A stretch of DNA of 64,000 nt, taken from Candidatus Heimdallarchaeota archaeon. GTDB lineage: Archaea > Asgardarchaeota > Heimdallarchaeia > JABLTI01. The stretch covers positions 10,796 through 74,795 of the forward strand of contig DXJV01000100.1 of the NCBI GenBank assembly GCA_019056785.1. The letters run 5' to 3'. A program made the position numbers and the translations under genes. The notes beneath the pieces are model-generated. The model worked only from the letters and a program-made list of their open reading frames with translations. It was not told where the DNA came from and searched no databases. The first letter of the stretch is position 1. Every line of letters starts with the position of its first letter. Of this stretch, positions 25,122 to 31,472 are shown piece by piece.

Positions 25122-26426
25122 ATGACTGAAGTCGAATATGATGTTATAATTGTTGGTGCTGGTTGTGCAGGACCCGCTGCAGCAAAGAAAGCAGCAGAAT
25201 TAGGACTGAAAACGCTCCTTTTAGAAAAATCCCGAACGCCTGGAGAGAAAAATGTTTCGGGGACATGTCTAAACATGGCGGCGCTTGTTGATCCTGATTT
25301 ACATTATCTTATGAAAGGTCCTGTTGAAAGGGAAATTACCGAAATGCATTCGTATATGATTACGCCAGAGCGAACGACGATGTTTCGTGAAACCCCGAGT
25401 GAAGGGTTGATTCTTTTATCGATTCGCCGCGACCACTTCGATGCCTGGCACACGGAAGAAGCTCGCAAAGCCGGTGCAGAGGTCCGCTTAGCAACGACAG
25501 TAGTGGATATCATTGAAGAGAATGATGCGATAAAGGGCGTCATTACTGATAAAGGCGAGAAACTTCGAGCAAAAGTGATTATTGATGCTGCCGGCGTGAA
25601 TTCCATTGTTGGCCGAAAAGCAGGGCTTATTCCCAAGCGCAAAGGAACGGATATGATTCTCTATGTTACGGTGAATGTTCATCTTGGTGAGAAACTGGTC
25701 ACCGAACGTTTTGGCAACTCCATTTACTATTTCCTTGCCCCACAGACTCAATACAAGACTTGGCCATGGGCATTTCCAAAGAAAGACGTTGTCACTTTCG
25801 GCACAGGTGGCTATCTGGATGACAACCTCTTCAAAGATGGCATAAACTCTGTCAACGACTATATGCAGAACCTTTTGGATCTGCCCGTTATTAAAGAGAA
25901 AATAAAAGGGGGAAAAATTGCCTCTTGGGGCTTGCACCTCGAGTTTGATGAGGCATTGGAGCGGCGAACACGTGATGGATTAATCCTCACCGGTGAAGCA
26001 GGGGGATTTGTGATTCCTTTCTTGGGCGAAGGAATGGTCGAAGCCTTCTTGACAGGCATTTATGCTGCCCAAACCGCAGCTAAAGCCATCGAAGCGAACG
26101 ATGTTTCAGCAGCATTTCTAGAAGAACATTTTATGGAATACTATACAGGCAATGTTTTCTTGCAAAGCTTCCGCTATGTAGCTGACTTTAATAAGAAATC
26201 CATTCTCTCTATGCCTGACGAAGAAATCGCAGCAATGATGCAAAATGTCTGCATTGGTGGTGGCTTTATCAGTAACGCAATTCATTACAACTGGATGAAA
26301 GGCGCAGACGAAGACGATATGAGTTTGGTCCAAGAGGCCAAAGATTTCTATGAATTTATCCAGCCATATCGACAAGTTGGTTCGGAATCAGTAGAAATTT
26401 ATAAAAAAATGAGGGCTGAAAAATGA
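25122..26426 (+). CDS. Geranylgeranyl reductase/FixC-family FAD oxidoreductase
   Basis: DVIIVGAGCAG, PGEKNVSG, RRDHFD, WAFPK, GEAGG..P..GEG. Confidence 0.88.
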   Translation: MTEVEYDVIIVGAGCAGPAAAKKAAELGLKTLLLEKSRTPGEKNVSGTCLNMAALVDPDLHYLMKGPVEREITEMHSYMITPERTTMFRETPSEGLILLSIRRDHFDAWHTEEARKAGAEVRLATTVVDIIEENDAIKGVITDKGEKLRAKVIIDAAGVNSIVGRKAGLIPKRKGTDMILYVTVNVHLGEKLVTERFGNSIYYFLAPQTQYKTWPWAFPKKDVVTFGTGGYLDDNLFKDGINSVNDYMQNLLDLPVIKEKIKGGKIASWGLHLEFDEALERRTRDGLILTGEAGGFVIPFLGEGMVEAFLTGIYAAQTAAKAIEANDVSAAFLEEHFMEYYTGNVFLQSFRYVADFNKKSILSMPDEEIAAMMQNVCIGGGFISNAIHYNWMKGADEDDMSLVQEAKDFYEFIQPYRQVGSESVEIYKKMRAEK

Positions 26427-26683
26427 AGGTCGAAATGAAAGTTGACTATTATCCCGGCGACCCCGGAGAGTTTGTGCGAGTCGATGAAAGCAAATGTACC
26501 GGTTGTGGCGAATGCGCCAAATTCTGTACACGAAATGTATGGGTACAAGATGGCAAGATCTTTCGCCCAAAGAACTTGAAAGCATGTGTCGAATGTGGTG
26601 CTTGCTGGAATGTTTGTGAGTTTGACGCAGTCATTTTTGAAGAACCAAAAGGAGGAACTGGTGTAAGATTTGAATATGGATAG
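26423..26683 (+). CDS. 2x[4Fe-4S] ferredoxin (FixX-like); 3' end probably supplied by the integrated element
   Basis: CTGCGECAKFC, CVECGACWNVC, PKGGTGV; ATGA overlap with the upstream gene. Confidence 0.92.
   Translation: MKVEMKVDYYPGDPGEFVRVDESKCTGCGECAKFCTRNVWVQDGKIFRPKNLKACVECGACWNVCEFDAVIFEEPKGGTGVRFEYG
26597..26683 (+). repeat. Left copy (attL-like) of the 87-bp ferredoxin 3'-end duplication
   Basis: 72/87 nt identical to 29073-29159; first 23 nt (ggtgcttgctggaatgtttgtga) identical. Confidence 0.9.
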
Positions 26684-26699
26684 AGTTTCCTATCCATTT

Positions 26700-27011
26700 C
26701 TATTTTACTAATTCTCCTTTGAATGCTTTGTGAAGAATGGATTGTTTAAGTTCTTTAATATTTTCAGCCGCTTTAGTGGATTTTTCTAATATTTATTTTT
26801 TCTTTTCAAAAATAGTGTCAAAAAATAATACTAAATTTTTTTGTTGGTTTTTATCAATTACATCATCTATTGTAGGCAGAGGTATTTTCATCGACTTTAA
26901 ATTATTCTGAGCTATACCTCCTTGTGTTGAACCATGAAATTTGTTTGCAAATTGATCTTGACCAAGATATGAAAATAAAACGTAAGAAGCATAATGTTTT
27001 GATTTTAACAC
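26700..27011 (-). pseudogene. hsdS: C-terminal remnant of type I restriction specificity subunit
   Basis: GSTQGGIAQNNLKSMKIPLP..QQK, in-frame TAA at 26793-26795, then LKQSILHKAFKGELVK* ending at 26700. Confidence 0.82.
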
Positions 27012-27130
27012 AAAGTAGGAAAGATCTTCCGGTAGACGTACAAGGAATGTTAGTTGAGCATTTTAATATTGATGATCCATATAATGATATTTATACAAAA
27101 GTAAAAAAATTGGTTAAAAGGTATAAGTGA
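26990..27130 (+). pseudogene. 3' remnant of a TIR-like/nucleoside deoxyribosyltransferase-like gene
   Basis: NVLILTQSRKDLPVDVQGMLVEHF..; 5' part missing and abuts the hsdS remnant. Confidence 0.4.
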
Positions 27131-27180
27131 GAAACAGACATTAGATTCCTAGGAGATATTTAACATTATTTTAATTTTCT

Positions 27181-27990
27181 CTAATCTACTTTTATCTTTG
27201 ATGAAATAATCGAATACCTTTTCAATAGAAATAAATCTTATTTGCGGAAAATCATTCTTTTTAAATTTCTCAGTTTCCTTTGGTGCAAAGAAAAATAAAA
27301 TTGTATCATTATTAGATATTGAATCCTGTAAAGATTGTAATTTATTAATTATTGTTTTTTTATTTTCTGCAAAAGTTACTTGAGCACAGATTCTGATATT
27401 TTCTTTATTTAAACCATAAATATCAAAATCTTTCTGCCCCCTTCCAATAGGTTGAAGAAGAAATTCTATTTCTTCTTTGCTTTTTAAAATTCATAACAGA
27501 TAATTTCTAATTGTTCGGGAGAAAGCGATTTAACTTCTAAAGGTAATTCTTTTTCATAATAGAAATATCTCAAAACTTTAGATACTTTTGACCACTCTTT
27601 TATAGTTCCCCTAGGTTGACTGGATTGGAAGATAGGATAATCCATAAAAGAAACTTCTCTAAAACTACTTAATTGCATTGTTTTAAGTTTATATTCATTC
27701 TTTTTCAAACAACCTATTTTTGTACCTTTTGTGATTTTACCTACAAGTATAGCATCTTTTCTTATTCGTCTAAAATCAGCAGCGACTATAGCACCTTCTT
27801 TTGACATTTTGTGCATCAAATCAAATGCAAATTTTACTTCTCTAAAATTTTTTTTATATTTGTTAGGATTTGTGCTACATATATTCTCATAATGAATTGC
27901 TATTTTTTTTTCATCCCATAATTTTTCAAGTAAATCTTTTGGAACTGAGATATTGTGTCTTATAAAAACTATAATTTCCTCTTTGTCCAT
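27181..27990 (-). pseudogene. Frameshifted Mrr-like PD-(D/E)xK restriction endonuclease
   Basis: ..LSPEQLEIICYEF*, then continues in the -1 frame at about 27485 as LKSKEEIEFLLQPIGRGQKDFDIYGLNKENIRICAQVTF..KDKVD* (27181). Confidence 0.7.
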
Positions 27991-27995
27991 AATAT

Positions 27996-28253
27996 CTAAT
28001 CGATTTTTCTACATTTAAAATATTTATCATCAAAAAGTAAAGCGCCTTCCCCACGATCTGTTCTACCAAGAAAAATCTCATAATCGAATTCTACAAGATA
28101 AGGATAATCCATTATTGTTGGAAATTCTTTTTGATATTTAACAATAAAAGATTTCAAAAGTGTTTCATCATCAACGGGTCCTTGAACTCTGCACCAAATT
28201 TCTTTTCTAACATGTTTATCATAAATAGCTAATTGCTTGTTTTTTATCATCAA
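27996..28253 (-). pseudogene. Truncated hypothetical, possibly a PD-(D/E)xK nuclease fragment
   Basis: DYEIFLGRTDRGEGALLFD followed by an early stop; inside the island. Confidence 0.4.
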
Positions 28254-28361
28254 ATCATTTCCTTAAGAAAAAAATTATGATTGATATTAAGCTCTCAATC
28301 CACCACTAAATTTCGCTTCAAAAAGTTTTTTACTTATTTTGAATCCTTAGTTTGAAGGCCA

Positions 28362-28845
28362 TCATGTAATGGCTTGAAATTTGACCGGCTGTTTTTTGAG
28401 CAATAGTCCAGATAACCCAATCAAAACGATCCTTACAAGCAGGATCATACACCGAAAAAGAAGGAAAAGTAAAGATAGGATAAGAGAAAAAAGAGTAATT
28501 TTTGGGTTACGAGTAAAATAAAGACCTATGACTTTACCGGCAGGATAAGGAACAAGAAAAGTATGCTTGTGAGTGGTTACATCTGGCATATCAAACATTA
28601 ATTTAGACATTTCAAAATAAATATCTGTTAAAGGATTATGTATAATAAGCTGTTTTTGATGTAAAGAAGAATTCTTGAAACTATTTCGATAGAATTGTTT
28701 AATGAACTCATGAGTTAATTTTTCTCGACCAATAGTCTTAGCTTCTTCAGTTGAAGAAATAATACTAGTAATTATTTCAGAAACTTGAGCAGTAAAAAAA
28801 AGAGATTGCTGAATCAATAAGTTGAACTAAATCAGAAGATTTCAT
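28362..28845 (-). pseudogene. Hypothetical membrane-anchored protein, frameshifted in a homopolymer
   Basis: ATG at 28845 (MKSSDLVQLIDSAISFF) shifts frame at the A8 run near 28794-28801 into the 151-aa ORF. Confidence 0.45.
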
Positions 28846-29072
28846 AGTAAATACATCCCTATACCAAAAGAATAACCTCAGAGGAAAAAATAATGGTTGC
28901 GAGAGGAAAAAAAGGAACTCTTCTCAGAAAAAGAAAACAGATGAGAAGAGAAGAAGGAAAAAGGATAAAAAGGAGAAAAAAGAACATAAAAACATCAATG
29001 CAACAAAAAGAAAAACGCTTCTCAAATGAGAAGAGAAGGAGAAGATTCCAAATGAAGAAAGAAAACCTGTAC

Positions 29073-29159
29073 GGTGCTTGCTGGAATGTTTGTGAATTTG
29101 ACGCCGTCATTTTCGAAGAACCGAAAGGCCGTACCGGTGTTCGCTTTACTTATGGTTAG
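29073..29159 (+). repeat. Right copy (attR-like); displaced original 3' end of the ferredoxin gene
   Basis: Encodes GACWNVCEFDAVIFEEPKGRTGVRFTYG*, followed directly by the SD and ATG of the SCP2 gene. Confidence 0.9.
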
Positions 29160-29170
29160 GAGGACTTCAA

Positions 29171-29506
29171 ATGGTTACAGATGAAGAGATTGTTTCTGAA
29201 ATGGACAAATTCCGCGCAAAGATGACTGATGAAAAATACGCCCGTCATTTCAAGAATTGGAACAAAACAATGCAATACTTCTTCAATGACACAGGTGACT
29301 ATTGGCACATCGTTGTTACCAATGGACAACCGGGCAAGCCCGCGAAGGGAAAAGTTGACAAACCGGATATTAACTACGAAATGTCTACAACAGACTTTTT
29401 GGATTTGATGCAAGGACGCATTTCGGGTCTCAAACTTTACAACCAGAAACGGTTGAAAATCAAAGCTTCCATGCCGGACATTCTTAAGCTGCAAAAATTA
29501 GCTTGA
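29171..29506 (+). CDS. SCP2 sterol/lipid-binding domain protein
   Basis: WHIVVTNG..KPDINYEMSTTDFLDLMQGRISG.KLY...RLKIKA; SD GGAGG. Confidence 0.85.
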   Translation: MVTDEEIVSEMDKFRAKMTDEKYARHFKNWNKTMQYFFNDTGDYWHIVVTNGQPGKPAKGKVDKPDINYEMSTTDFLDLMQGRISGLKLYNQKRLKIKASMPDILKLQKLA

Positions 29507-29591
29507 ATGTCTCCCCTTTTTTCTTTCTTTTTTTAAACTTTAGCCAACAATTTAAAAAGCTGAAGAATATGTTTCTTTTTAATAACAGGAG

Positions 29592-30560
29592 ATGAATTAT
29601 CCCATGCCAAGGCGGCCTGATGCTGAACTTATCAAAACATCAAAGTTTCGCGAGCTGGAATTTTATGTCATGCCAACTCGAGCAGAGAGCATGATCTTTT
29701 ATTACATGCAGATTGATCTGACACACACGTTAGAATTTCTGGAAGAATACAACAAAAATCGCTGTGAAGAGGATAAGCTTACTCTCTTTCAGCTTCTCCT
29801 AACTGCAGGGGTGCGAACAATTGCTTACCGGCCAAAGGTCAATCGGTTTGTTGCCGGGCGACGGTTATGGCAACGCAATCAAATCCTTTTCTCTTTTGTG
29901 GTCAATAAATCCAAAACAGAAGCTGGTGAAGAAGTTCTTGCTATGATTGAATTTGATCCCTTTGACACTCTCGAGACTGTGCAAAAAAGAGTCAGCGAAA
30001 AAATTCACGAAGCTCGCTATGGTGAAAATAAAAATGAAAAGGACATCAAATTTTATGGCGCCATGCCCCGCTTTTTAATTCGCTTTATTTTCTGGTTCGT
30101 TCGCTGGCTGGATGAACACAATCATCCTCCCTATTTCATAACTCGAGATATGCCTCTTTGGTGTTCTGTGTTCATCGCTCATCTGGGCTCAATAAATATC
30201 GATTCAGTTTATCATCATCTTTACAATCTTGGGACAGCAAGCTTTTTCATCACAATTGGAAAAATCCACAAAGCCACCGTATTAAATCAAGAAACCAATG
30301 ACATTGAGATAAAACAGGTAGTGGACCTTCGGCTTACAATTGATGATCGCATTGCCAATGGCATTTATACCGGACGAACCGTAGATATGCTCAAAAATTT
30401 CATTGAACATCCAGAGCCACTTCTCGAACCACCGGCACTTACTGATGAACAACTAGATGCTTTAAAGTTGAAAAAATACAAAAAAGAACGCCTTGCTCGC
30501 GAAAAGCAACGCCGGAAAGAACTGCGACAAGCAAAACGGCGTAACAGAACAAAACAATAA
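29592..30560 (+). CDS. Stand-alone 2-oxoacid dehydrogenase E2/CAT-like acyltransferase domain protein
   Basis: RPKVNRFVAGRRLWQR, SVFIAHLGS, TIDDRIANG in place of DHRxxDG; no lipoyl domain. Confidence 0.8.
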   Translation: MNYPMPRRPDAELIKTSKFRELEFYVMPTRAESMIFYYMQIDLTHTLEFLEEYNKNRCEEDKLTLFQLLLTAGVRTIAYRPKVNRFVAGRRLWQRNQILFSFVVNKSKTEAGEEVLAMIEFDPFDTLETVQKRVSEKIHEARYGENKNEKDIKFYGAMPRFLIRFIFWFVRWLDEHNHPPYFITRDMPLWCSVFIAHLGSINIDSVYHHLYNLGTASFFITIGKIHKATVLNQETNDIEIKQVVDLRLTIDDRIANGIYTGRTVDMLKNFIEHPEPLLEPPALTDEQLDALKLKKYKKERLAREKQRRKELRQAKRRNRTKQ

Positions 30561-30638
30561 AGAACAAGCTACTTTCTTTCAGAACGATAAATTAAGCTCT
30601 GTGCACCTTAATCTCTGCTTAATTTTTTCTCGGTCGTC

Positions 30639-31472
30639 TTAAAGTAATTTGAGTAATTTATGACCTTGAATGGAAAGCCCAAATAAATCTGTTGGGAGCG
30701 TTTCTGCCAGTGTTTCTGTTATTTGGAATAATTTTTGCGCAGAGGGCGCTTTTGCTCCTCCAAGAGGCGTGACGGGTTGCACGACAATCGGGATAACAAT
30801 TTCGCGCAATTTATTGGCAATCATTTGAACATCATTCAAATTCGTGTCTTCAGTGACCACCAGTTTTGCAAATACTTTTGCGGGGAAGTTATTTAAAATA
30901 GAGAGTGATGTTAGTTCTCTCTCGACCAATTTTTCCCAATTACCCTTTTTTACGCTGTTGGCACTCCGGTCTTTTATATCAACACACGCATAGCTAATTA
31001 ATGGAGCCACTTTTTCAATCCGCTGAGGGTAGTAGCCATTTGTTTCAAGGTAAATAGGGATTTCCAATTCGTAAAGTTTGTTTGTCAATTCATAGAAAAA
31101 TTCTTCCTGAAAAGTTGGTTCACCCCCCGTAAGAGAGACAGAATGAAGGTCCTTTGTGGAGAGGTTAAGAATTTGCTCGATTGTAAAATCAACAGTTACG
31201 GGATTAGCGGTGGTGGTGAATTTCCAACTTCCAGGGACAGTTTCAACTCGACAAGTAGGGGCGTTGACATCACGGGAAGAGGCAGTATCACACCAGATAC
31301 AATGTAAATTGCATCCCGCCAGTCTTACAAAGATTTGCCGCCGTCCAAAACATGAGCCGCGAACAACACCACCTTCTCCTTGAAAAGAGCTAAAAATTTC
31401 GATAAGGCTTCCTTTCACAGGTGATTGTTGTTTACGCTCGCCGGCGAGGACTTCAGTCATTTTTTCTATCAA
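30639..31472 (-). CDS. queE: 7-carboxy-7-deazaguanine synthase
   Basis: EIFSSFQGEG, FVRLAGCNLHCIWCDT, LTGGEP, LETNG, QGHKLL. Confidence 0.92.
   Translation of the reverse strand: MIEKMTEVLAGERKQQSPVKGSLIEIFSSFQGEGGVVRGSCFGRRQIFVRLAGCNLHCIWCDTASSRDVNAPTCRVETVPGSWKFTTTANPVTVDFTIEQILNLSTKDLHSVSLTGGEPTFQEEFFYELTNKLYELEIPIYLETNGYYPQRIEKVAPLISYACVDIKDRSANSVKKGNWEKLVERELTSLSILNNFPAKVFAKLVVTEDTNLNDVQMIANKLREIVIPIVVQPVTPLGGAKAPSAQKLFQITETLAETLPTDLFGLSIQGHKLLKLL

What the first reader, a model, noticed from the sequence alone, without database searches (positions are those of the whole stretch)
26597..29159. Element integrated inside a ferredoxin gene and repaired it with its own recoded 3' end
Seen: the last 87 bp of the ferredoxin gene occur twice, flanking a 2.4-kb AT-rich insert. 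They share a 23-bp identical core within the second 4Fe-4S motif, 72/87 nt identity and 26/28 aa identity, so most differences are synonymous. The copy in use has A/T-ending codons like the island. The orphan copy has host-like codons and is followed directly by the SD of the SCP2 gene. Inference: site-specific integration at a protein-coding attB, with attP carrying a replacement C-terminus under purifying selection. The original operon was GGR-ferredoxin-SCP2-acyltransferase. A ferredoxin Cys motif is an unusual integration target.
Basis: partly seen in the sequence, partly recalled or inferred. Interest (0 to 1): 0.72.

Follow-up and report, generated by a model that had tools for sequence, protein, structure and literature searches.

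The report
Decayed island inside ferredoxin gene end
A 2.4-kb remnant of foreign DNA sits inside the end of a small ferredoxin gene of an uncultured Heimdall-group (Asgard) archaeon and brought its own copy of the last 21 codons, so the gene stays whole; this trick is well known from bacterial prophages and other archaea, so it is a clean but not a new kind of event.

Summary
The last 87 bp of an 86-aa 2x[4Fe-4S] ferredoxin gene occur twice (26597-26683 and 29073-29159): 72/87 nt, 26/28 aa, 23-bp identical core. They flank 2389 bp of 25-30% GC DNA in a roughly 42% GC genome. Ten relatives have ferredoxin and SCP2 genes adjacent with nothing between them. None has a second ferredoxin at the right-hand position. 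Logan contigs from other public runs bridge both junctions.

The two tails differ by 9 synonymous and 2 non-synonymous codons. The tail in use has the insert's codon bias; the orphan has the host's.

The insert holds almost only gene fragments (HsdS, TIR, ApeA-like HEPN and an unknown family) and no recombinase. A congener carries a 14-kb island next to the same operon. It shares three of those genes and a ~250-bp arm with two palindromes at identical spacing from the core. That island also lacks any recognisable integrase, and its junction polarity is unresolved.

Best reading: an immobile remnant of an integrative, defence-gene-carrying element that entered by an e14/icd-type crossover. Whether a dedicated integrase or host recombination made the crossover is open. 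This is a new member of a known kind, of moderate interest.

The parts
25122..26426 (+). Geranylgeranyl-reductase / FixC-like FAD oxidoreductase (434 aa), first gene of the operon
   Evidence: TIGR02032 GG-red-SF 1.6e-43 and FixC-like subfamily models, all below their curated cut-offs; Pfam FAD families. 80-82% identical orthologues precede the ferredoxin in all congeners.
26423..26596 (+). Host-derived 5' part of the ferredoxin gene (codons 1-58)
   Evidence: Pfam Fer4 families. GC3 is 0.47, like the host operon.
26597..26619 (+). 23-bp core, left copy (attL): codons G59-E66, covering Cys61 and Cys65
   Evidence: Identical to 29073-29095.
26620..26683 (+). Foreign replacement tail of the ferredoxin (21 codons plus TAG), now in use
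   Evidence: GC3 is 3/21 against an operon value of 0.42-0.49, P about 0.015 even at a host GC3 of 0.387. Arg = AGA. Closest at nucleotide level to the G008/G010 tails (55/66) and to the arm-linked tail of G005 (53/66).
26690..27011 (-). C-terminal fragment of a type I restriction specificity subunit (HsdS), with an internal stop
   Evidence: Pfam Methylase_S 4.6e-4, below cut-off. Six-frame reading shows the usual ...KQSILHKAFKGEL end after a stop.
26981..27130 (+). C-terminal fragment of a TIR-domain protein
   Evidence: 47% identical over 49 aa to the C-terminus of the 144-aa TIR protein of the G005 island. That protein hits PF10137 at 2.1e-9.
27155..27990 (-). About 277-aa ORF of unknown family, split in this assembly by a 1-nt frameshift near 27483-27485
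   Evidence: 168-aa ORF plus an open continuation in another frame. Contigs of runs X6 and X7 carry an extra A after 27485 that joins the two frames. Only a weak SMEK_N hit, 0.0034.
27996..28253 (-). 85-aa ORF of unknown family, 5 nt upstream of the previous ORF
   Evidence: ORF list. No Pfam, PHROG or PADLOC hit.
28384..28482 (-). 33-residue fragment of a 378-aa protein family of unknown function
   Evidence: Profile of 6 family members matches at 3e-10, profile positions 277-309. 76% nt identity to the G005 gene.
28362..28817 (-). Truncated N-terminal part of an ApeA-like HEPN defence-type gene (151-aa ORF; its last ~40 residues read out of frame over the previous fragment)
   Evidence: 38% identical over 105 aa to the 190-aa ORF of G005. 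In two distant relatives that domain is the N-terminus of 511-512-aa proteins. The C-terminal part of one of them (P0009) is 56% identical to G005's adjacent 322-aa ORF, which gives a weak, below-cut-off HEPN_Apea hit; the other (P0010) also gives one.
28818..29072 (.). Purine-rich element arm with two palindromes (CTCTTCTCA-N15-TGAGAAGAG at 28918-28950; CTTCTCAAATGAGAAG at 29018-29033) and an in-frame ATG at 29052
   Evidence: About 77% identical to the arm of G005. Both have the same spacing: 98-99 nt between the palindromes and 44 nt from the second palindrome to the TGYTGG of the core. The 9-mer is confined to the arm in G005: 4 sites against 0.34 expected. RNA fold z = -3.0.
29073..29095 (+). 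23-bp core, right copy (attR)
29096..29159 (+). Orphaned original 3' end of the host ferredoxin (21 codons plus TAG)
   Evidence: GC3 is 8/21, like the host, with Arg CGT/CGC. Contiguous with the SD and the SCP2 gene. Matches ferredoxin residues 58/59-86 only.
29171..29506 (+). SCP2-fold protein (111 aa), the host gene that follows the ferredoxin directly in relatives
   Evidence: PF02036 at 4.6e-10. Fd and SCP2 are adjacent in 10 relatives.
29592..30560 (+). Acyltransferase (2-oxoacid dehydrogenase catalytic-domain family, 322 aa)
   Evidence: PF00198 at 1.9e-10. It follows SCP2 also in G007 and G009.

Best explanation
The 2389-bp stretch is the decayed, immobile remnant of an integrative element that carried defence-type genes. 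A circular form of the element carried, next to a ~250-bp arm, a copy of the ferredoxin gene from codon ~58 to the stop. A single crossover inside the 23-bp block that encodes G-A-C-W-N-V-C-E joined the host's first 58 codons to the element's tail. This is the left copy, which is the ferredoxin now in use. The host's own tail was left as an orphan behind the arm, still joined to the ribosome-binding site of SCP2. This is the design used by e14 and phage 21 at icd in E. coli. Later deletions cut the element down to fragments of HsdS, TIR, HEPN and an unknown gene, plus one or two possibly intact small ORFs. Shown: the insertion, the duplication, the purifying-selection pattern, the foreign composition of the tail in use, and kinship with a 14-kb island at the same operon in a congener. 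Inferred: the circular intermediate, the crossover point, and which enzyme made the crossover.
For: Repeat and core. AT-rich insert. Empty site, with Fd directly followed by SCP2, in G001, G004, G006, G007, G009, G010, G011, G020, G038 and G040. The right copy has no ferredoxin 5' part. Nine synonymous against 2 non-synonymous codon changes; pS 0.74 and pN 0.09 after the core. This fits two functional gene ends that diverged in separate lineages. It does not fit an in-place duplication followed by decay. Left tail GC3 is 0.14 with AGA, like the insert (0.19). Right tail GC3 is 0.38 with CGY, like the host. Downstream synteny SCP2-acyltransferase-QueE is conserved with relatives. Three insert genes and the arm are homologous to the 14-kb island beside Fd-SCP2 in G005. 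In each genome the two copies share their own 23-bp identical block, and the G000 and G005 blocks differ from each other. Both junctions are bridged by contigs of other public runs. The same mechanism is documented for e14/icd (PMC13626634, citing Hill et al. 1989) and for 14 of 68 thaumarchaeal elements (PMC6563490).
Against: No integrase, transposase or other recombinase was found in the insert or among the larger ORFs scanned in G005's 14-kb island (three ORFs of 88-133 aa were not scanned), apart from a TnpB-like IS gene. G000 has no PF00589 match at 82.5% completeness. In G005 the composition points the other way: the tail and SCP2 on the operon side are host-like (GC3 0.33/0.44) and the arm-linked copy is element-like (0.24/0.22). 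The arm-core-tail there therefore looks like an unrecombined attP. The arm lies upstream of the leftward HEPN gene, so its conservation could reflect a promoter or operator rather than recombinase sites. The polarity call in G000 rests on only 21 codons.
Confidence: 0.7

Rival explanations
1. Same geometry, but no dedicated integrase. A circular DNA that had captured the ferredoxin tail (in some versions also SCP2) from an earlier host entered by host homologous or microhomology recombination. The crossover can then fall anywhere in the captured homology. The locus behaves as a recombination hotspot for islands, not as an att site.
For: No recombinase in either island. In G005 the repeat runs on past the ferredoxin stop into about 30 codons of SCP2, and its composition suggests a crossover further right. 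SCP2 is discordant between near-identical genomes: G006 and G007 have GGR 97% and Fd tail 100% identical, but SCP2 only 70%. Gene content after SCP2 differs in almost every congener.
Against: 23 identical bp within 83%-identical DNA is a poor substrate for ordinary homologous recombination. The left limit of the captured homology and the arm architecture are the same in G000 and G005. Each genome's two copies share an identical block at the same place in the Cys motif, as expected of a fixed crossover site.
Confidence: 0.18
2. Reversed polarity. The left tail is the host's own. The insert ends with an element-borne ferredoxin tail and landed exactly between the ferredoxin stop and the SCP2 ribosome-binding site.
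For: This is what composition suggests for G005. Native ferredoxin tails of relatives also have low GC3, 0.10-0.29. The left tail is 26-27/28 aa like the genus consensus, whereas the right one has an odd G->R change.
Against: Those relatives have low GC3 throughout (0.23-0.34), whereas G000's operon is 0.42-0.49 and only its left tail drops to 0.14. The right tail matches host GC3 and host Arg codons. A junction exactly at a stop codon with an 87-bp diverged repeat fits no known insertion mechanism.
Confidence: 0.08
3. Tandem ferredoxin paralogues, the second decayed to its last 28 codons, with unrelated DNA accumulating between them.
For: Only the duplication itself.
Against: Ten relatives have a single ferredoxin directly followed by SCP2. 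There is no trace of a ferredoxin 5' part upstream of the orphan; instead there is an arm shared with another island. Synonymous sites are saturated while protein identity is 93%.
Confidence: 0.02
4. Assembly chimera joining a host contig to foreign DNA at a shared ferredoxin-like sequence.
For: The genome is a 102-contig metagenome bin.
Against: Logan contigs of public runs, each filed under its own study, cover the insert, and contigs from two of them bridge a junction.
Confidence: 0.02

Closest known systems
e14 and phage 21 integration into icd of Escherichia coli (Hill, Gray & Brody 1989; described in PMC13626634)
   Same: The crossover lies inside the 3' part of a protein-coding gene. 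The element supplies a diverged, mostly synonymous replacement end, so the gene stays functional. The host's original end remains as a C-terminal pseudogene (icdC) at the far end of the element.
   Different: e14 has its own integrase and excises on SOS induction. Here no recombinase is present and no excised form was seen. The host is an Asgard archaeon, the target is an 86-aa ferredoxin, and the element is reduced to 2.4 kb.
[quoted passage not shown] 2019, PMC6563490)
   Same: [quoted passage not shown] Re-use of one site and tandem arrays are reported.
   Different: Those att sites are short (for example 13 bp, with 8 nt of the gene replaced), and the elements encode tyrosine recombinases or casposases. 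Here 64 nt of coding sequence are replaced and no integrase is found.
Integrated elements of Heimdallarchaeum and Atabeyarchaeia (PMC8813620, PMC11529989)
   Same: Asgard hosts, with AT-rich islands carrying defence and unknown genes.
   Different: The passages I read describe integration next to tRNA genes, or at an 11-bp motif with a tyrosine integrase. I found no mention in them of a protein-coding target with end replacement. Neither paper was read in full.

Membership tests
Integrative element with a gene-end-replacing attP (e14/icd type) | Direct repeats with an identical core flank the foreign DNA | tested here: met
   87-nt repeat with a 23-nt identical core.
Integrative element with a gene-end-replacing attP (e14/icd type) | The target gene's reading frame is completed by element-borne sequence that diverged under purifying selection | tested here: met
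   Intact 86-aa ferredoxin with all 8 Cys. 9 synonymous against 2 non-synonymous changes. The tail has the insert's codon bias.
Integrative element with a gene-end-replacing attP (e14/icd type) | Empty site in related genomes | tested here: met
   Fd directly followed by SCP2 in 10 relatives.
Integrative element with a gene-end-replacing attP (e14/icd type) | Element-encoded tyrosine or serine integrase | tested here: not met
   No hit in Pfam, PHROGs or PADLOC for the ORFs scanned in the insert and in the 14-kb G005 island. No PF00589 in G000; the six copies in G005 lie on other contigs.
Integrative element with a gene-end-replacing attP (e14/icd type) | Excised circular form or empty-site variant in the population | tested here: inconclusive
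   No contig joins across the insert in the four runs laid, but these are low-depth contigs, not reads.
Transposon-type insertion (Tn7-like, casposon, IS) | Terminal inverted repeats and a short exact target-site duplication | tested here: not met
   The best inverted pair near the ends is 33 nt at 73%. The repeat is 87 nt and 17% diverged.
SSV-type 'suicidal' integrase element | attP lies inside the integrase gene, leaving Int(N) and Int(C) fragments at the two ends | tested here: not met
   The frame running into the right core is a Lys/Arg-rich ORF that is not conserved in G005 and has no Pfam hit. The left tail ends at the ferredoxin stop.

The most novel reading that the evidence does not exclude
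The arm-core-tail module marks a family of Heimdallarchaeial defence islands that move without any known recombinase type. They would use either an unrecognised enzyme among their unknown proteins or a host enzyme bound at the two conserved palindromes. These islands would be built to spare the invaded operon: they restore the ferredoxin end, in some versions carry a spare SCP2, and supply a conserved Shine-Dalgarno-like GGAG plus an in-frame ATG seven codons before the orphan tail. The resulting 35-codon mini-ORF would end at the native stop and could keep SCP2 translationally coupled.
Probability: 0.12. Interest if true: 0.65.

Novelty: new member of a known kind. Interest (0 to 1): 0.4.

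Why it matters
This case shows an Asgard archaeon carrying the gene-end replacement scar familiar from bacterial prophages. The crossover lies inside an iron-sulfur cluster motif, and I found no such case described for an Asgard archaeon in the papers I consulted. It also marks the stretch after this ferredoxin as a variable hotspot in one Heimdallarchaeial genus, where defence genes, an ABC transporter and alternative SCP2 alleles come and go. The two related islands have no recognisable recombinase. Finding an intact relative would show either an ordinary integrase that was lost or a new way of moving DNA in the closest prokaryotic relatives of eukaryotes.

Tried and rejected
Search for an integrase. 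Pfam, PHROGs and PADLOC on the ORFs scanned in the insert and in the G005 island gave none.

Unknown proteins.
- The 378-aa family has only 6 members in 5.8 billion proteins.
- The ESM Atlas gave no usable hit for it or for the 190-aa protein.
- AlphaFold models were too poor to search (pLDDT 52 and 37), so no fold search was run.
- A 733-aa paralogue in G008 sits in an ordinary chromosomal context.
- I first took the 190/151-aa protein for an element hallmark. It turned out to be the N-terminal domain of a 512-aa protein with a weak ApeA-like HEPN match.

Search for more copies.
- The class-wide profile search with the 190-aa family and the pattern search with the arm palindrome found only G000 and G005; the 378-aa profile also matched the G008 paralogue.
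- Genome contigs returned only G005.
- Metagenome contigs returned one 1.5-kb contig.
- Four IMG/VR scans found nothing.

The 2.26-Mb and 28-kb contigs that carry family members could therefore not be read.

Other negatives.
- There is no tRNA or Rfam family in or beside the insert.
- No RNA holder was listed among the sequencing runs, so expression is untested.
- No contig joined across the insert in the four runs laid. One small 546-nt joint in X8 (side 21) was not pursued.
- My last word-indexed search for the 168-aa ORF used the 'longer' length band by mistake. That band excludes the expected 277-aa form, so it says nothing.

Tn7-like and casposon insertion and an SSV-type split integrase were considered and rejected on anatomy.
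Full report
**1. The observation**

The window encodes a GGR/FixC-like flavoprotein (25122-26426). It is followed, with a 4-nt overlap, by an 86-aa ferredoxin with two CxxCxxCxxxC motifs (26423-26683).

The last 87 nt of that gene recur at 29073-29159. The two copies are 72/87 identical, and the first 23 nt are identical. A rough binomial puts such a match at about 3e-24 by chance.

The 2389 bp between the copies are 25-30% GC, against about 40-46% on either side.

The right copy matches ferredoxin residues 58/59-86 only. Its stop codon is followed by GGAGG and then the start of an SCP2-fold gene. An acyltransferase and a convergent QueE gene come next.

The arrangement is not an assembly artefact. 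Logan contigs from four other public runs (hydrothermal-vent and sediment metagenomes, each filed under its own study) cover the insert. Single contigs bridge the left junction (25311-26733) and the right junction (28985-31000; 28963-29156). No contig joins across the insert, so no empty-site strain was seen, but these are low-depth contigs.

**2. It is an insertion, not a decayed paralogue**

The genome is a 102-contig, 82.5%-complete bin. The record title of a congener reads Candidatus Heimdallarchaeota.

In ten relatives from three genera (G001, G004, G006, G007, G009, G010, G011, G020, G038, G040) the GGR, ferredoxin and SCP2 genes are contiguous. About 10-40 nt separate the ferredoxin stop from the SCP2 start. 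None has a second ferredoxin.

**3. The two tails**

Eleven codons differ: nine synonymously and two not. After the core, pS is 0.74 (saturated) and pN is 0.09. The two ends therefore diverged for a long time as working gene ends in different lineages. An in-place duplication followed by decay would not give this pattern.

| Feature | Left tail (in use) | Right tail (orphan) |
|---|---|---|
| G/C-ending codons | 3/21 | 8/21 |
| Arg codons | AGA | CGT, CGC |

For comparison, the host operon has GC3 0.42-0.49 and uses CGN for 82 of 101 Arg codons. The insert ORFs have GC3 0.19 and use AGA for 10 of 18.

Relatives' native tails are also AT-rich. However, their whole operons are AT-rich too (GC3 0.23-0.34), so only in G000 does the tail stand out from its own gene.

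The right tail is physically continuous with conserved host synteny: SCP2-acyltransferase-QueE, as in G007 and G009. I note that the argument rests on 21 codons.

**4. What the insert contains**

Almost everything is a fragment:

- an HsdS C-terminus with an internal stop (26690-27011, minus strand);
- the last ~50 residues of a TIR protein (26981-27130, plus strand);
- a 33-residue piece of a 378-aa family of unknown function (28384-28482, minus strand);
- a 151-aa ORF (28362-28817, minus strand).

The 151-aa ORF is the truncated N-terminal domain of a larger gene. In two distant relatives that domain is fused to a C-terminal part to give 511-512-aa proteins. One of these, and G005's 322-aa ORF that corresponds to the C-terminal part, give weak ApeA-like HEPN matches below the Pfam cut-off.

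Two adjacent minus-strand ORFs may still be intact. One is an 85-aa ORF. The other is an ORF of about 277 aa that is split in this assembly by one missing base. Contigs from two other runs carry an extra A after 27485 that restores a single frame.

There is no integrase, transposase, tRNA or Rfam family.

**5. A related island next to the same operon in a congener**

In G005 (JAHLVW010000108.1), GGR-Fd-SCP2 is followed by 14 kb of 29-35% GC DNA. This DNA encodes:

- a HerA-like ATPase;
- membrane and secreted proteins;
- a TIR protein;
- a TnpB-like IS gene;
- the 378-aa protein;
- a 289-aa unknown protein;
- the ApeA-like HEPN gene, split into 190 and 322 aa.

Next comes a purine-rich arm, a ferredoxin tail, and the first ~30 codons of an SCP2 copy. 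The last ~90 nt of the contig recur elsewhere in that genome.

Three G000 fragments are homologous to G005 genes. The ~250-bp arm is about 77% identical between the two genomes, which is better conserved than the adjacent protein (38% aa).

The arm carries two palindromes built from CTCTTCTCA. In both genomes the second lies 98-99 nt after the first, and 44 nt separate it from the TGYTGG of the core. In G005 the 9-mer occurs nowhere else in 18 kb: 4 sites against 0.34 expected.

In each genome the two ferredoxin-tail copies share their own 23-bp identical block in the Cys motif, and the G000 and G005 blocks differ from each other.

This kinship is the strongest evidence that the G000 insert derives from a defined element family and is not miscellaneous DNA.

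**6. What does not fit neatly**

- Neither island encodes a recognisable recombinase. G000 has no PF00589 match at all; G005 has six, all on other contigs.
- In G005 the composition suggests the reverse arrangement. The operon-side tail and SCP2 are host-like (GC3 0.33 and 0.44). That SCP2 carries two in-frame TAA codons at Gln positions. The arm-linked tail and SCP2 start are element-like (0.24 and 0.22).
- The arm-linked tail of G005 and the left tail of G000 resemble each other (53/66) and the G008/G010 native tails (52-55/66) more than they resemble their own partner copies.
- G005's right end therefore looks like an unrecombined attP. It could be the junction between two tandem elements, which is a known outcome of site re-use (PMC6563490). 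Alternatively the crossover there lay further right in a longer captured homology.
- The arm is also the upstream region of the leftward HEPN gene. Its palindromes may be operators rather than recombinase sites.

**7. The locus is a hotspot**

G008 differs from its close relative G010 by 5.6 kb (a 329-aa gene and an ABC transporter) between SCP2 and the next shared gene. That extra DNA ends in a decayed ferredoxin tail (CWTICDFDAALIEEPKGDTGVILAYN).

G006 and G007 have 97%-identical GGR and identical ferredoxin-tail proteins but only 70%-identical SCP2, and they carry different genes after it.

The genes following SCP2 differ in almost every congener.

**8. Mechanism and comparison**

The anatomy is that of e14 or phage 21 at icd. 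A crossover inside the gene's 3' part leaves an element-borne, mostly synonymous replacement end in use and the host's end as a C-terminal pseudogene at the far side (PMC13626634, citing Hill et al. 1989).

Integration into 3'-distal parts of protein-coding genes is also established in archaea: 14 of 68 thaumarchaeal elements, including replacement of the stop codon (PMC6563490).

In the passages I read, the Asgard elements described so far integrate at tRNA genes or short motifs and carry tyrosine integrases (PMC8813620, PMC11529989).

I therefore file this as a new member of a known kind. The defining integrase feature was tested and not met, so the claim is 'works like', not 'is a member with its own integrase'.

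My odds are as follows:

| Reading | Probability |
|---|---|
| Remnant of an element that entered by a crossover in the core, with the tail in use foreign | 0.70 |
| Same geometry, but by host recombination on captured homology rather than a dedicated integrase | 0.18 |
| Reversed polarity | 0.08 |
| Paralogue decay | 0.02 |
| Assembly artefact | 0.02 |

**9. A speculative extra**

In both G000 and G005 the arm ends with GGAG, then 10-12 nt, then an in-frame ATG seven codons before the core (MKKENLY-GACW and MKKESQC-GACW). This makes a 35-codon mini-ORF that stops at the native ferredoxin stop just ahead of SCP2. It could keep SCP2 translated after the operon was split. This is an inference only; no RNA data were available.

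Noticed in passing
window 27483-27485: Contigs of two other public runs (X6, X7) have an extra A after 27485. It fuses the 168-aa ORF with the next frame into one ~277-aa ORF. The frameshift in this assembly is therefore a strain variant or a homopolymer error.
   Followed up: partly
L022:3362-3691 (G005): The SCP2 gene next to the ferredoxin has two in-frame TAA codons, both where relatives have CAA (Gln), and is otherwise 77% identical to G000's. It is most likely a young pseudogene. Recoding was not examined.
   Followed up: no
L026/L027 (G006, G007): Two genomes have 97%-identical GGR and identical ferredoxin-tail proteins but SCP2 only 70% identical, with different downstream genes. The switch lies right after the ferredoxin stop.
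   Followed up: partly
L023:3663-9244 (G008): A 5.6-kb block (a 329-aa gene plus an ABC transporter permease and two ATPases) is absent from G010. It is bounded by a decayed ferredoxin tail, suggesting an older event at the same site.
   Followed up: partly
L022:15859-17390 (G005): The ApeA-like HEPN gene is split into overlapping 190-aa and 322-aa ORFs. Two distant relatives (P0009, P0010) have it as one 511-512-aa protein.
   Followed up: yes
L022:17827-17912 and G005:C11:76008-76096: The last ~90 nt of the G005 contig, which interrupt the second SCP2 copy at about codon 33, recur at 80% identity on another contig. This is probably the end of an IS or MITE and the reason the contig breaks.
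   Followed up: no
whole genome G000: No Phage_integrase (PF00589) match anywhere in the 82.5%-complete bin, not even a XerA-type gene. G005 has six.
   Followed up: no
window 28893-29159: An 88-aa Lys/Arg-rich ORF runs through the arm into the orphan tail. It is broken by stops in G005, so it is probably not a gene; only its last 35 codons are open in both.
   Followed up: yes
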